Below, in pieces: positions 9,001 to 12,000 of a stretch of 64,000 bases of DNA. The position numbers were made by a program. Each line of letters starts with the position of its first letter. Position 1 is the first letter of the stretch. Origin of the DNA: Escherichia coli (GTDB taxonomy: Bacteria > Pseudomonadota > Gammaproteobacteria > Enterobacterales > Enterobacteriaceae); assembly GCF_003018115.1 (NCBI RefSeq), contig NZ_CP027457.1, one strand, 5' to 3'.

Positions 9001-12000
9001 GAAGAACGAATCCACGTACCAGACGGTGTACGGCAGCTATAAAAACAAAACGGAAAAGAATATCCATTTCGTACCGTTCATGACGGATGAGAACGGGGTG
9101 AATGTGCCGACGAACAAACCGGAAGAAGACCCGGACATTCCGGGTATCGGGTATTACGGTTCGAAATGGCGTGACAGCTCAGCCACCTGGACGTCACAGG
9201 ACAGGGCGAGCCATTTCAGCACCTGGGCTCGCCGGGGGATTATTTCCGACCGTCTGGCAACGGCGATTCTGGTGCACGCCGGGAGAAGCGCTGAATTCAT
9301 TACCGGAAAACAGCCTGATATGGTGAGGCCCACCGTACCTTCCGGTGAAGGTCCGGAGATAGAGGCGGAAGCCCCGGCCAGTAAGCGTACCCTGATGAGT
9401 CTGCTGGCATCCGGCGAAGACCTGGCATCACAGGGCTGGCGCTATTATCACAAACCGGCGGGCGGAGACAGTGTTAACAAAAACATTGCTGAAGCGGTGG
9501 TCAGTGATGCGGGGGCTACGGGAGGTAAGGCTCTGCAACTGAACAAACCGGAAAATCACATCTGGTTTCTGGAGCATGATGCAGCCGGACAGGGGGCGGA
9601 GTTACTGAAGAAGGGCGGACGTGTGAGCGTACGGTTTAAGTTGCCGGGTTCACTGGTGCCGAATCAGTTTGCCCTGGGCATTTACTGGCTGTTGTCGTCC
9701 CTGCCGGAGGGGGTGACGTTGTCAGGAGAAGGTAACGATATGCTGATGTCCTTCTTTCTGCAGACGGATACGACGAACCTGAACGCGATGCATCACAGGA
9801 AGCCGAATGCGAAGCTGGATACATTCGGGGTCTTTGATAACGGATGGCACACGCTGGCTTTTGAGTTTGCCGGAAACAACAGCATTCAGGTGACACCAGT
9901 ACTGGATGAGAAACGGGGAGCGGCGTTCACACTGGTGAAGTCACCGGCATCGGGGGCGGCGGACAAACTGCAACTGACCGATATATCAAAATCGGCGACG
10001 TATATGCTGCTGATTGACAGCATTGCGGTGGAAGTGAACAGCACAGACACTGCGGCATGATAAAAAAAGCCGCCAGCTACCGGAATGGACTGGCGGTGGT
10101 AATACCCATGGAGAAATATAAAGGAACGATACTTTCGTGCTCTGGTTTTTTAAATGAAAACAGTTCTTATTGTCAACAATAACGGTAAGAAATTATGACT
10201 TTTATTCATCAGGTGATGCTGTACTTCTGTACGGCAGTCTGTGTGCTGTATCTCCTTTCGGGTGGATACCGGGCCATGCGTGACGTCTGGCGCAGACAGA
10301 TTGACAAAAGGGCCGCTGAGAAAATCAGCGCCAGTCAGTCAGCCGGAAGCAAACCCGAAGAGCCGCTCATTTAGCGGCAACTTTCTTAATCACACCTTTC
10401 GACGAGAAAATCCCATGTCAGAAATTACATCCCTGGTCACTGCTGAGGCAGTGAAGGAAGTCCTGCGCTCTGAAGAAGTCCGGAGCGCACTGAAACAGAA
10501 ACTTCGCCATAACCTGGAAGCGCGTCTTGATGCAGAAGTGGATGCCATTCTGGATGAACTGCTGGGCGCACCGGCTGTTCCGGAGCCGGAAGGCATCGCG
10601 GGTGAGGGGAGTGCTTCAGATAGCGGTGACCCCACACCTGACAGCGACATGATGATGTAAGCATGCGTCAGGGAACATCGGTGTGTGCCGGTGGTCTTTT
10701 TTATTGTTGTGAGCTTCCGGATTGCGGGAGACGGGGTATGTACCTGATGGAAAAAATCACAACAGGTGTGTCATACACCACGTCAGCGGTGGGAACGGGC
10801 TACTGGTTCCTGCAGTTGCTGGACAGGGTTTCCCCGTCTCAGTGGGCGGCAATAGGCGTGCTGGGGAGTCTGCTGTTTGGTCTGCTGACGTACCTGACGA
10901 ACCTGTATTTCAAAATCAGAGAGGACCGGCGTAAGGCGGCGCGGGGAGAGTAAGCTGATGAGCAGGAAACTCCGCTATGGTTTATCGGCTGCCGTTCTGG
11001 CGCTGATTGCCGCAGGTGCGCCAGCCCCTGATATTCTCGACCAGTTTCTGGATGAAAAGGAAGGCAACCACACCACGGCATACCGTGATGGTGCGGGTAT
11101 CTGGACCATCTGCCGTGGAGCCACCCGGGTGGATGGTAAGCCTGTTATTCTTGGCATGAAGCTGTCGAAGGGGAAATGCGACCATGTTAACGCCATTGAG
11201 CGTGATAAGGCGCTGGCATGGGTGGAGAAAAACATCAGAGTGCCACTGACTGAACCCCAGAAAGCGGGTATTGCGTCATTCTGTCCGTATAACATTGGCC
11301 CCGGTAAGTGTTTCCCGTCGACGTTTTATAAACGAATTAATGCAGGCGATCGCCGGGGGGCATGCGAGGCGATTCGCTGGTGGATTAAAGACGGTGGCAG
11401 AGACTGCCGTATCCGCTCAAATAACTGTTATGGTCAGGTATCCCGTCGTGACCAGGAGAGCGCGCTGGCGTGCTGGGGTATCGACAGATAAGCAGAATAT
11501 TTTGCTGAAAAATGACGTTGGCCAACGCGGACGGATAACACGAAATCCTGCGAACTGGCAAAACCTAAGTGAATAAAAGTAAAAACCCCGTTTGTTGGCA
11601 GCAAGCGGGGTTTTGTGTTTCTGACCTTGGATAAGGCAAGGGAGAACACGGAAAAGTATAAACGAATTCTGTTGAGGTTGACTATGAAAAACGGCCTTGA
11701 ACTGAAAGCGCCAGTAAGTGATGACATCAGCAGAGCGCTGGCTTTTGCTATTAAGTGGGTGGCGGTTGGTATCGCTGTGTCTCCGATACTGTATGGGCTG
11801 GCAAAACTGGTCATTGCGTTGAAATCGTGAAGGGAGGATTAAACATGTCAGACAAACTCATAATGCTGGCGAAGATCCTCTGTGTAATCGTCGGCATTTC
11901 ATTTTCACTAATGCTGGTTGCTCTTTTTCTTTCCATGGGCTGGATGATGTTATCTTCGTCGGGGCTGCTGGGGTGAGCATAAACCGAATGCTTTCCGCGT

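What the first reader, a model, noticed from the sequence alone, without database searches (positions are those of the whole stretch)
11684..11976. Two small hydrophobic ORFs with good ribosome-binding sites between endolysin and spanin genes
A 48-aa and a 43-aa ORF, each with a purine-rich RBS and a single predicted TM helix, fill the gap between R and Rz/Rz1. They are below the ORF-track cutoff. Small membrane peptides here could modulate holin or SAR-endolysin timing or act as membrane toxins.
Basis: seen in the sequence. Interest (0 to 1): 0.45.

Follow-up and report, generated by a model that had tools for sequence, protein, structure and literature searches.

The report
Two small membrane-protein genes in phage lysis cassette
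Two tiny genes for membrane-embedded peptides sit between the cell-wall-cutting enzyme gene and the outer-membrane-breaking genes of an E. coli prophage; they are real, conserved and widespread (also in Shiga-toxin phages), optional for the phage, and of untested function.

Summary
ORF-A (11684-11830, 48 aa) and ORF-B (11845-11976, 43 aa) exist, each has a Shine-Dalgarno site at good spacing, and each has one hydrophobic helix. They lie between a SAR-type endolysin gene and Rz/Rz1 in a 933W/phage-21-type cassette.

Both appear to be real genes. In-frame pN/pS is 0.20 for A (0.12 against Salmonella) and 0.37 for B. RefSeq and PHROGs already list them as hypothetical proteins. About 28% of complete E. 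coli genomes carry the pair.

They move independently. A+B, A alone and B alone all occur, the last behind an antirepressor gene in O157:H7 Sakai prophages. A+B also follows a non-SAR GH108 endolysin. Close relatives lack both, so they are accessory.

No coding-strand promoter was found. A strong terminator precedes A. The stop codon of B touches the next gene's start. I therefore infer late, Q-dependent expression and a non-essential lysis-tuning role (confidence about 0.4).

Rival readings are a lysogen-expressed exclusion moron, a type I toxin-like module, and a coupling leader for Rz.

Two extras: most A relatives have a second start 12 codons upstream, mutated to ACG here. A conserved 32-nt element at A's start also matches a minus-strand promoter. 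Interest is modest.

The parts
10738..10953 (+). Context: class II (phage 21 / 933W type) holin, 71 aa, with Met1 and Met4 starts (MYLM...)
   Evidence: Pfam Phage_holin_2_1, E 9e-33. RefSeq annotates the homologue as a class II holin.
10958..11491 (+). Context: endolysin R, 177 aa, T4-lysozyme fold. It has a weakly hydrophobic N-terminal anchor (LRYGLSAAVLALIAAGAPAP) typical of SAR endolysins.
   Evidence: Pfam Phage_lysozyme, E 1.8e-23. The E-8-D-5-T motif was read from the sequence. The 933W R is used as a SAR endolysin in PMC9239132.
11582..11614 (.). Strong hairpin with U-tracts on both strands (a bidirectional intrinsic terminator), lying between R and ORF-A
   Evidence: 15-bp stem found by the terminator scan. 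Folding energy is -21.1 kcal/mol (z -4.5) on the + strand and -23.9 (z -3.9) on the - strand. Non-homologous hairpins sit at the same place upstream of distant A relatives.
11648..11650 (+). ACG codon at the position where 65 of 69 distinct relatives have an in-frame ATG. That ATG would start a 60-aa form, M-x-KYKRILLRLT-MKNG.... The start is lost in this window. An AAGGGAG SD-like site lies at 11638-11644.
   Evidence: PhiR12_1 annotates the 60-aa form.
11655..11686 (.). 32-nt element (AGTATAAACGAATTCTGTTGAGGTTGACTATG) conserved more strongly than the coding region. It contains the SD of A (GAGG, 11674-11677) and the ATG. On the minus strand it reads as TAGTCA-18 nt-TATACT, a sigma-70-like promoter.
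   Evidence: Alignments. The minus-strand promoter match is found at the same spot in the window and in four other contexts. Function is untested.
11684..11830 (+). ORF-A, a 48-aa single-helix membrane microprotein (RefSeq WP_000788411.1; phrog_1115)
   Evidence: dN/dS is 0.12 against Salmonella. In-frame pN/pS is 0.20, against 0.40-18 in the other five frames. AF2 gives a helix at 11-47.
11845..11976 (+). ORF-B, a 43-aa single-helix membrane microprotein (RefSeq WP_001280927.1; phrog_4906; homologue of Sakai ECs_1966/ECs_5707). Its SD, GGAGG, is at 11833-11837.
   Evidence: pN/pS is 0.37 in frame. Fisher p is 0.0023 and 0.014 for excess synonymous change. The stop lies 0-12 nt from the next gene's start in every context.
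11973..12446 (+). Context: i-spanin Rz. The GTG at 11973 overlaps the stop of B (GTGA). The canonical ATG of relatives is ATA here (11979-11981). PGAP uses the ATG at 11988.
   Evidence: Pfam Phage_lysis, E 4.2e-39. Junction comparison. RefSeq start.
12199..12405 (+). Context: o-spanin Rz1, embedded in Rz
   Evidence: Pfam Rz1, E 6.9e-21.

Best explanation
ORF-A and ORF-B are two real, separately mobile genes. Each encodes a single-pass inner-membrane microprotein. They travel as optional cargo in the slot between the endolysin gene and the spanin genes of lambdoid lysis cassettes.

They have no recognisable promoter on their own strand, and they lie behind a strong intrinsic terminator. They should therefore be made only when Q-antiterminated late transcription runs through S-R-A-B-Rz/Rz1.

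B ends on or next to the start codon of the following gene. Here that is a GTGA overlap with Rz, so translation of B probably feeds translation of Rz.

Their most likely job is non-essential tuning of envelope disruption from within the inner membrane. They could do this by associating with the transmembrane segments of the pinholin, the endolysin's SAR anchor or the i-spanin, or by perturbing the membrane itself. This would shift lysis timing or efficiency rather than enable lysis.

Shown: the genes are real, conserved and of membrane type; their position; the coupling signals; and that they are optional.

Inferred: late-only expression and the lysis-tuning role.
For: Real genes:
- A against Salmonella gives dN/dS 0.12 at dS about 1, with differences by codon position of 8/4/21.
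- Across distinct DNAs, in-frame pN/pS is 0.20 for A and 0.37 for B. These are the lowest of the six frames.
- B shows excess synonymous change, Fisher p 0.0023 and 0.014.
- 114 (A) and 107 (B) protein clusters at 90% identity were found, most with the same length and ends.
- PGAP and PHROGs list both.

Membrane type: hydropathy and the AF2 helix.

Position in lysis cassettes of three different kinds:
- P21-type holin, SAR lysozyme, A, B, Rz/Rz1 in E. coli.
- HP1-type holin, R21-like SAR lysozyme, A, Rz in Salmonella.
- Two other holins, GH108 endolysin, A, B, lipoprotein in E. coli.
- R, Ant, B, Rz in Sakai prophages Sp5, Sp6, Sp10 and Sp12 and many Stx phages.

Expression signals:
- No + strand promoter was found, and a strong terminator lies upstream.
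- The stop of B is 0-12 nt from the next start in all contexts.

Viability: plaque-forming phages (PhiR12 and PhiR5 series) carry A+B.
Against: - Both genes are dispensable. K-12 DLP12 and Qin join R directly to Rz.
- A Stx2a phage has the same R and hairpin but neither gene.
- Among 80 phage contigs chosen for having A, B is frameshifted in 8, has an altered N-terminus in 2 and is absent in 5.
- Association with a soluble GH108 endolysin argues against a SAR-specific mechanism.
- Distant A relatives lie outside lysis cassettes, next to tail-fibre or tail genes.
- There is no similarity to any family in the Pfam, PADLOC or NCBIfam libraries, holin, Hok and releasin families included.
- No expression or phenotype data were found.
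Confidence: 0.4

Rival explanations
1. Moron-type lysogenic-conversion genes. A and/or B would be expressed from the resident prophage. They would act on host inner-membrane proteins, for example to block DNA entry by superinfecting phages, and would have nothing to do with lysis.
For: - The R-Rz slot takes alternative cargo: nothing, A, A+B, Ant+B, A+B+A', or A+B plus about 1 kb.
- A carries a conserved 5' element and an adjacent hairpin wherever it goes. This includes positions after tail-fibre genes, where exclusion morons are often found.
- Small single-pass peptides commonly act by binding larger membrane proteins (general knowledge).
Against: - No sigma-70-like promoter was found on the coding strand. 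The conserved TATAAA lacks the final T and has no -35 partner (and my reading).
- The terminator is upstream of A, not downstream.
- B is wedged between genes, with its stop touching the next start.
- No PADLOC match.
Confidence: 0.2
2. A type I toxin-antitoxin-like module. A would be a toxic membrane peptide. Translation of its long, 60-aa form would be held down by a cis-antisense RNA of about 75 nt. That RNA would start at a conserved minus-strand promoter overlapping A's start codon and end at the bidirectional hairpin.
For: - The only sigma-70-like match in each A context is on the minus strand at the same position. It reads TAGTCA-18-TATACT in the window and TAGTCA-18-TATAAT (10 of 12) in L173.
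- The predicted start, near 11648, would make the RNA complementary to the SD of the upstream start (11638-11644) and perhaps to that codon.
- The hairpin terminates in both directions and folds well on the minus strand.
- Hairpins of unrelated sequence keep a spacing of about 40 nt in three contexts.
- The peptide's size and hydrophobicity fit type I toxins.
Against: - The promoter is a consensus match only. The same 32 nt also hold A's SD, its start codon and possibly coding sequence, which could explain the conservation.
- No toxin promoter was found upstream.
- No Rfam family matches.
- No Hfq-CRAC peak was seen at the R-to-Rz junctions examined in Sakai (Sp5, Sp6, Sp10, Sp12). However, those prophages carry Ant, not A, at that junction, and no A copy was located in Sakai.
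- No Hok/Gef match.
Confidence: 0.12
3. B is mainly a translational-coupling leader. Once foreign DNA (A or Ant) separated R from Rz, a short upstream ORF restored ribosome delivery to Rz. On this reading the peptide itself matters little.
For: - In cassettes without an insert, R and Rz overlap by 4 nt.
- With an insert, B always ends 0-12 nt from the next start and carries that gene's SD in its last codons.
- In the window lineage the canonical Rz ATG is ATA. A GTG overlapping the stop of B is then the start that keeps the N-terminal Arg (sequence).
- B is less constrained than A (pN/pS 0.37 against 0.20) and is sometimes frameshifted while keeping its length.
Against: - Purifying selection and a preserved hydrophobic helix extend over the whole peptide, not only its 3' end.
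- B also precedes an unrelated lipoprotein gene in GH108 cassettes.
- A phage with the same R and Rz manages without B.
Confidence: 0.15
4. Spurious ORFs: conserved DNA that only happens to be open, or genes on the opposite strand.
For: - Long antisense ORFs overlap both genes (11434-11814, 126 aa; 11811-12053, 80 aa).
- The antisense frame that shares wobble positions with B scores pN/pS 0.42, close to B's 0.37.
- Among closely related sequences B shows no third-position excess, with variable sites of 12/8/8.
Against: - The antisense frames stay open automatically opposite hydrophobic coding sequence. A stop there needs a sense codon with A at its second position, which is rare in B (my reasoning from the code).
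- The starts and lengths of the antisense ORFs vary: 126, 80 and 42 aa opposite A, and 80, 76, 72 and 68 aa opposite B.
- A and B keep the same start, stop, SD and length across three contexts, and the lowest pN/pS of all six frames.
Confidence: 0.05

Closest known systems
Dual-start holin/antiholin pairs (lambda S107/S105; phage 21 S71/S68)
   Same: A small membrane protein encoded in the lysis cassette. In 65 of 69 distinct A-family sequences two in-frame starts, each with an SD-like site, are separated by a strongly basic stretch (KYKRILLRLT). The longer form would therefore carry extra positive charge at its N-terminus.
   Different: A has a single helix and no charged C-terminal tail. It matches no holin family. 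The starts are 12 codons apart rather than 2-3. The window allele has lost the upstream start (ACG at 11648-11650). No hole-forming or inhibitory activity has been tested.
Mu gp25 releasin (DUF2730), PMC9239132
   Same: A non-holin membrane protein encoded a few genes from a SAR endolysin.
   Different: gp25 is 99 aa, N-out/C-in, with a 73-aa acidic cytoplasmic domain, and belongs to DUF2730. A and B are 48 and 43 aa with almost no soluble domain and match no Pfam family, DUF2730 included. The A-B pair also occurs with a non-SAR endolysin.
Type I toxins (Hok/Gef, TisB, ZorO, ShoB, Ldr)
   Same: Hydrophobic single-helix peptides under 60 aa, often in prophages. A divergent or antisense small RNA overlaps the 5' region. 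A possible counterpart is predicted upstream of A.
   Different: There is no sequence match to Hok/Gef. No toxin promoter was found. The antisense RNA is only a consensus prediction. The genes sit inside an operon and are translationally linked to neighbours.
Morons and alternative cargo at the same slot (Ant, a P22_AR_N antirepressor, in Sakai Sp5/Sp6/Sp10/Sp12; lambda bor downstream of Rz)
   Same: Presence varies among otherwise near-identical cassettes. The insertion lies exactly between the R stop and the Rz start.
   Different: Classical morons bring their own promoter and a downstream terminator. Here no coding-strand promoter is seen and the terminator is upstream.
Database families phrog_1115 (A) and phrog_4906 (B); RefSeq WP_000788411.1 and WP_001280927.1; Sakai ECs_1966/ECs_5707/ECs_5713/ECs_5732 (B)
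   Same: Direct sequence membership. HMM E-values are 3.4e-32 and 3.1e-21. The RefSeq proteins are identical. The Sakai B homologue reads MGWLMISDKLITLVKSLCVLVGISF....
   Different: All of these are labelled only as hypothetical or unknown function. They add no mechanism.

Membership tests
PHROG families phrog_1115 (A) and phrog_4906 (B) | Significant full-length match to the family HMM | tested here: met
   A: E 3.4e-32, residues 1-48. B: E 3.1e-21, residues 1-43. Both families are of unknown function.
Holins (Pfam holin families; classes I-III) | Match to a holin family model | tested here: not met
   No Pfam hit at E up to 1 for A (48- or 60-aa form). B has only a DUF3930 hit below threshold. 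The cassette's own holin is found at 9e-33.
Holins (Pfam holin families; classes I-III) | At least one TMD plus a highly charged, hydrophilic C-terminal cytoplasmic tail | tested here: not met
   One TMD each. The C-terminal flank of A is [11 protein letters not shown] (2 Lys). That of B is SSSGLLG (no charge).
Holins (Pfam holin families; classes I-III) | Lethal, timed hole formation that releases or activates the endolysin | not testable with these tools
   Needs expression and lysis assays.
Dual-start antiholin (S107 / S71 type) | Two in-frame starts giving a longer form with extra N-terminal positive charge | tested here: inconclusive
   The family norm is an ATG 12 codons upstream (65 of 69 distinct sequences), with a basic KYKRILLRLT extension. 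The window has ACG there. Variable sites in the extension are 8/5/8 by codon position, so there is no clear coding signal. Use of either start is untested.
Releasin (Mu gp25, DUF2730) | DUF2730 domain: an N-terminal TMD (N-out, C-in) with an acidic cytoplasmic domain of about 70 aa | tested here: not met
   No Pfam hit. A and B are 48 and 43 aa without such a domain. The defining features are taken from PMC9239132.
Releasin (Mu gp25, DUF2730) | Required for, or accelerates, SAR endolysin release | not testable with these tools
   Needs co-expression with R. The occurrence of A-B with a non-SAR GH108 endolysin argues against a SAR-specific role.
Spanins (i-spanin, o-spanin, u-spanin) | A periplasm-spanning domain (i-spanin) or a lipobox (o- and u-spanin) | tested here: not met
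   A and B have no lipobox and at most about 10-20 residues outside the helix. Rz and Rz1 are present separately.
Type I toxin-antitoxin | A small hydrophobic toxic peptide | tested here: inconclusive
   Size and hydrophobicity fit. There is no Hok/Gef or other family match. Toxicity is untested.
Type I toxin-antitoxin | An antisense or divergent small RNA that pairs with the toxin mRNA leader | tested here: inconclusive
   A conserved minus-strand promoter-like site and a bidirectional terminator are predicted. There is no Rfam match. No Hfq-CRAC peak was seen at the Sakai R-to-Rz junctions examined, which carry Ant rather than A.
Moron | Variable presence among close relatives, inserted between conserved genes | tested here: met
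Moron | Own promoter and downstream terminator allowing expression from the prophage | tested here: not met
   No + strand promoter-like site in 10300-13200. The terminator lies upstream of A, and none lies between A, B and Rz. This is a consensus scan only.

The most novel reading that the evidence does not exclude
Gene A would be a dual-start membrane peptide. Its long, positively charged isoform would be controlled by a cis-antisense RNA of about 75 nt. That RNA would be made from the conserved minus-strand promoter that overlaps A's own start codon, and it would end at the bidirectional hairpin. This would be a type I toxin-antitoxin-style switch built into phage lysis cassettes. Together with the Rz-coupled peptide B, it would set lysis timing or act as a fail-safe. 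If so, it would be a class of lysis regulator not yet described, and one present in Shiga-toxin phages.
Probability: 0.1. Interest if true: 0.65.

Novelty: new member of a known kind. Interest (0 to 1): 0.33.

Why it matters
These peptides are common. DNA matching A/B is in 1783 of 5426 complete E. coli genomes, and 1542 carry at least 80% of the pair. B lies between the antirepressor and Rz genes in four prophages of O157:H7 Sakai, including the Stx2 phage Sp5. It also occurs in 191 deposited phage records, mostly Stx-converting phages, where it is often unannotated.

Lysis timing determines phage burst size. In Stx phages, toxin is generally held to be released through phage-mediated lysis. 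If either peptide shifts lysis timing or spanin expression, it would be a cheap, testable modifier of both.

If they instead act in lysogens, they would add to the list of small membrane proteins by which prophages reshape their hosts. Either way they are an easy target for deletion and expression experiments.

As it stands the finding is a correct spotting of two known-but-uncharacterised small genes, not a new kind of system.

Tried and rejected
Family and structure searches that found nothing for A or B:
- Pfam.
- NCBIfam.
- PADLOC.
- PDB sequences.

Breadth of the A family: a profile search of A against 1.84 billion representative proteins gave only 13 hits, so the family is narrow.

RNA families: Rfam found no known RNA in 10300-13200 or in four related loci. 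The only match was a sub-threshold rimP-leader hit that simply reflects the hairpin.

Literature:
- No paper holds the peptide motifs, the RefSeq accessions, the PHROG ids or ECs_5707.
- The supplements of the Sakai Ribo-seq small-gene paper do not list the locus.
- The Pas sRNAs map between the esterase and holin genes, not here.
- The AgvB/AsxR motif is absent from the window.
- Of the Hfq-CRAC peaks in Sakai, EcOnc10, 11 and 12 lie downstream of Rz and EcOnc33 lies at the esterase 3' end. None is at the R-to-Rz junctions examined, which carry Ant rather than A.

Ideas considered and rejected:
- A coding-strand promoter at the conserved TATAAA. It has no -35 partner, no TG extension, and the final base is A, not T.
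- A or B as a spanin replacement in the Rz-less GH108 cassettes. Their extramembrane parts are too short.
- The antisense ORFs as the real genes. See the last rival explanation.

Inconclusive: an SD-sequestering hairpin around A's start is 96% paired across 8 sequences. It shows only one-sided G-C to G-U changes and no compensatory ones.
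Full report
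**What is in the sequence.** The window carries the late region of a lambdoid E. coli prophage.

Around the finding the genes are as follows:
- A phage-21/933W-type class II holin at 10738-10953 (Pfam Phage_holin_2_1, E 9e-33).
- A T4-lysozyme-fold endolysin at 10958-11491. Its N-terminal anchor is Ala/Gly-rich and weakly hydrophobic, as in SAR endolysins.
- A 481-nt gap.
- Rz (from 11973 or 11988 to 12446), with Rz1 embedded at 12199-12405.

- ORF-A runs 11684-11830 (48 aa), with GAGG 6 nt before its ATG.
- ORF-B runs 11845-11976 (43 aa), with GGAGG 7 nt before its ATG.

Each has one hydrophobic stretch. AlphaFold2 models A as a single helix at residues 11-47, mean pLDDT 83.

The ORFs occupy only the distal 293 nt of the gap. 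The proximal 192 nt is non-coding and contains a strong hairpin at 11582-11614. U-tracts flank it on both strands. Folding energies are -21 and -24 kcal/mol, with z-scores of -4.5 and -3.9.

**Are they more than chance?** Open frames of this size are common: 77 ORFs of at least 20 aa overlap 4.5 kb here. The case therefore rests on comparison with relatives.

Database status:
- RefSeq already annotates both as hypothetical proteins, WP_000788411.1 and WP_001280927.1.
- They fall in phrog_1115 and phrog_4906, both of unknown function.
- Protein searches found 114 clusters for A (Escherichia, E. marmotae, Salmonella) and 107 for B (E. coli only). Most keep the same length and ends.

Selection on A:
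- Window against a Salmonella prophage gives dN/dS 0.12 at dS about 1. Differences by codon position are 8/4/21.
- Over 27 distinct A DNAs, in-frame pN/pS is 0.20. The other five frames give 0.40 to 18.

Selection on B:
- Window against a 63%-identical copy from another cassette type gives dN/dS 0.30.
- Over 34 distinct B DNAs, in-frame pN/pS is 0.37.
- The excess of synonymous change is significant in two independent pairs, Fisher p 0.0023 and 0.014.

One caveat concerns B. The antisense frame that shares wobble positions with B scores 0.42, and an 80-aa antisense ORF overlaps it. However, a stop in that antisense frame needs a sense codon with A at its second position. Such codons are rare in a hydrophobic peptide, so the antisense frame stays open automatically. 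Its start and length also vary between relatives, whereas B keeps its SD, start, stop and length.

I take A as a real gene with high confidence and B with good confidence.

**Where else they occur.** I fetched 173 related loci, using similarity to A or to B. Because of that selection, the counts below are not prevalences.

| Architecture | Where found |
|---|---|
| Holin, SAR lysozyme, A, B, Rz/Rz1 (as in the window) | about 80 loci |
| A alone before Rz | some E. coli phages; Salmonella prophages with an HP1-type holin and an R21-like SAR lysozyme |
| B alone, behind a 180-aa P22_AR_N antirepressor gene, before Rz | O157:H7 Sakai prophages Sp5 (Stx2), Sp6, Sp10 and Sp12 |
| Two unrelated holins, soluble GH108 endolysin, A, B, 60-aa lipoprotein, no recognisable Rz/Rz1 | about 40 loci |

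Other points:
- One Sakai B copy (ECs_1966) carries an original-series locus tag, while the other three have 57xx-series tags.
- K-12 DLP12 and Qin join R to Rz with a 4-nt overlap and have no insert.
- A Stx2a phage has the same R and the same hairpin but neither gene.
- Among 80 phage contigs chosen for having A, B is intact in 65, frameshifted in 8, altered at the N-terminus in 2 and absent in 5.
- DNA matching A/B is in 1783 of 5426 complete E. coli genomes. At least 80% of the pair is in 1542.
- B is found in 191 deposited phage records, mostly Stx-converting phages and often unannotated. A is found in 12.
- Plaque-forming phages of the PhiR12 and PhiR5 series carry both.

A and B are thus independent, optional cargo genes of a slot that also accepts other cargo.

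**Signals around the genes.** No sigma-70-like site was found on the coding strand between 10300 and 13200. With the terminator upstream, the simplest reading is that A and B are transcribed only by Q-antiterminated late transcription. This is an inference.

The stop of B lies 0-12 nt from the next start in every context:
- A GTGA overlap, or TGA plus 7 nt, before Rz.
- TAG plus 4 nt before the lipoprotein gene.
- An ATGA overlap in one locus.

B's last codons also carry the next gene's SD. In the window lineage the ATG that starts Rz in relatives is ATA (11979-11981). That leaves two candidate starts. The GTG at 11973 overlaps B's stop and keeps the N-terminal Arg. The ATG at 11988 is the one PGAP chose. 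B translation is therefore probably tied to Rz translation.

**Two unexpected features of A.** First, 65 of 69 distinct sequences have an in-frame ATG 12 codons upstream. It has an SD-like AAGGGAG and would give a 60-aa form with a basic extension, M-x-KYKRILLRLT.
- Salmonella has GTG at that position.
- A distant metagenomic relative has ATG.
- Another distant relative has GTG one codon later, with a good AGGAG site.
- The window has ACG (11648-11650), so only the 48-aa form is available here.

This resembles the dual-start design of holins. However, codon-position variation in the extension (8/5/8) gives no clear coding signal.

Second, the 32 nt from 11655 to the ATG are more conserved than the coding region. 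This holds even in relatives about 40-50% identical in protein that lie next to tail genes. This element contains A's SD. On the minus strand it matches a promoter, TAGTCA-18 nt-TATACT. That match is the only one in each of the five contexts scanned. The promoter would drive an RNA of about 75 nt into the bidirectional hairpin. The RNA would be complementary to the SD of the upstream start.

This is prediction only. No Rfam family matches. None of the published Hfq-bound RNA peaks lies at the Sakai R-to-Rz junctions I examined. Those prophages carry Ant rather than A there, and I did not locate an A copy in Sakai. An SD-sequestering hairpin around the start is 96% paired but shows no compensatory change.

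**What they most likely do.** I commit to this reading: late-expressed, non-essential inner-membrane peptides that tune envelope disruption. B would also serve to deliver ribosomes to Rz. My confidence is about 0.4.

The shown steps are that the genes are real, that they are of membrane type, their position in three kinds of lysis cassette, the coupling signals, and that they are optional. The inferred steps are the late-only expression and the effect on lysis.

The main counter-evidence is fourfold. Both genes are dispensable. The A-B pair also occurs with a non-SAR endolysin. Distant A relatives lie outside lysis cassettes. No experimental data exist.

The rivals are:
- A lysogen-expressed exclusion or conversion moron (0.2).
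- B as mainly a coupling leader for Rz (0.15).
- A type I toxin-antitoxin-like module built on A and the predicted antisense RNA (0.12).
- Spurious ORFs (0.05).

**Comparison with known systems.**
- They are sequence members of phrog_1115 and phrog_4906 and of the RefSeq hypothetical-protein families.
- They are not holins. There is no family match, no charged C-terminal tail, and only one helix.
- They are not releasins. Mu gp25 is 99 aa with a 73-aa acidic cytoplasmic DUF2730 domain (PMC9239132).
- They are not spanins, and they are not Hok-type toxins by sequence.
- Functionally they may work like small antiholin-type or modulator peptides, or like type I toxins. That is a resemblance, not membership.

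**Verdict.** They are already in databases as hypothetical proteins, are widespread, and are functionally untested. Novelty is modest: new members of a known kind, namely small accessory membrane proteins and moron cargo in phage late operons. The features worth a follow-up experiment are the upstream second start, the conserved 5' element with a possible antisense promoter, and the tight B-to-Rz coupling in Shiga-toxin phages.

Noticed in passing
window 11973-11990: The ATG that starts Rz in relatives (MNRVLC...) is ATA here (11979-11981). That leaves a GTG at 11973, which overlaps the stop of ORF-B (GTGA), or the ATG at 11988 that PGAP uses. The ATG at 11988 would drop the N-terminal Arg.
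   Followed up: partly
window 10738-10749: The holin's two starts are M-Y-L-M, with no basic residue between them. I recall phage 21 S as M-K-S-M; this was not checked here. The usual charge difference between antiholin and holin forms would then be missing.
   Followed up: no
window 4917-5129, 6889-7084, 7148-7357, 7419-7617, 7679-7868: Five + strand copies of the Rfam sRNA family STnc100. Four are in a tandem array just upstream of the sialate esterase-like ORF (8096-10060).
   Followed up: no
window about 10060-10740: This is the interval between the SASA/sialate esterase gene and the holin gene. A 2026 preprint (10.64898/2026.05.13.724894) places the prophage sRNAs PasA, PasC and PasD at that position. 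It contains DUF1378 and DUF826 ORFs and two terminator-like hairpins (10362-10378, 10676-10693). I did not check it for Pas sequences.
   Followed up: no
L089 2071-3461; L093 1385-3322: E. coli prophage lysis cassettes with two non-P21 holins and a soluble GH108 endolysin carry A and B but no recognisable Rz/Rz1. A 60-aa lipoprotein (lipobox LVGC, mature part about 30 aa with 3 Cys) follows B instead. In some, a 65-aa tail-anchored protein replaces the N-terminal part of A. How these phages breach the outer membrane is unclear.
   Followed up: partly
L079 2137-2548; proteins P0086-P0092; L013 3160-3280: Rearranged variants exist. One is A-B-A', with the second A copy lacking its first 9 codons and abutting B's stop. 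Others are B/A fusion ORFs of about 83 aa. A third is an 11-nt deletion that frameshifts the C-terminal half of B yet still gives 43 codons.
   Followed up: partly
window 11434-11814 (-) and 11811-12053 (-): Long antisense ORFs (126 and 80 aa) lie opposite A and B. They are best explained as a by-product of hydrophobic coding sequence, and their starts and lengths vary between relatives.
   Followed up: yes
window 38404-38487 (-) and 38513-38589 (-): Rfam matches to C4 antisense RNA and to the isrK Hfq-binding RNA lie side by side. I recall both as phage-associated RNAs (C4 as the P1/P7 immunity RNA); this was not examined here.
   Followed up: no
window 3942-4103; 47244-47337 (-); 59772-59974: tRNA-Met(cat) and tRNA-Arg(tcg) lie in the late-promoter region, as in Stx phages (compare Sakai Sp5), but no stx genes were noted nearby. 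A Trp operon leader at 47.2 kb and STnc180 at 59.8 kb suggest host chromosome there.
   Followed up: no
window 12470-12694: A 74-aa ORF directly after Rz matches phrog_2571 (unknown function; it matches only part of a 291-position profile). It recurs after Rz, or after the lipoprotein gene, in many related loci.
   Followed up: no
L174 3001-3601 (Salmonella chromosome): A 49-aa A-like gene sits directly upstream of an Rz gene in what looks like a prophage remnant, next to a SopD-family gene and an IS110-family transposase. This exact protein is indexed in 1647 blocks of the public assembly collection.
   Followed up: no
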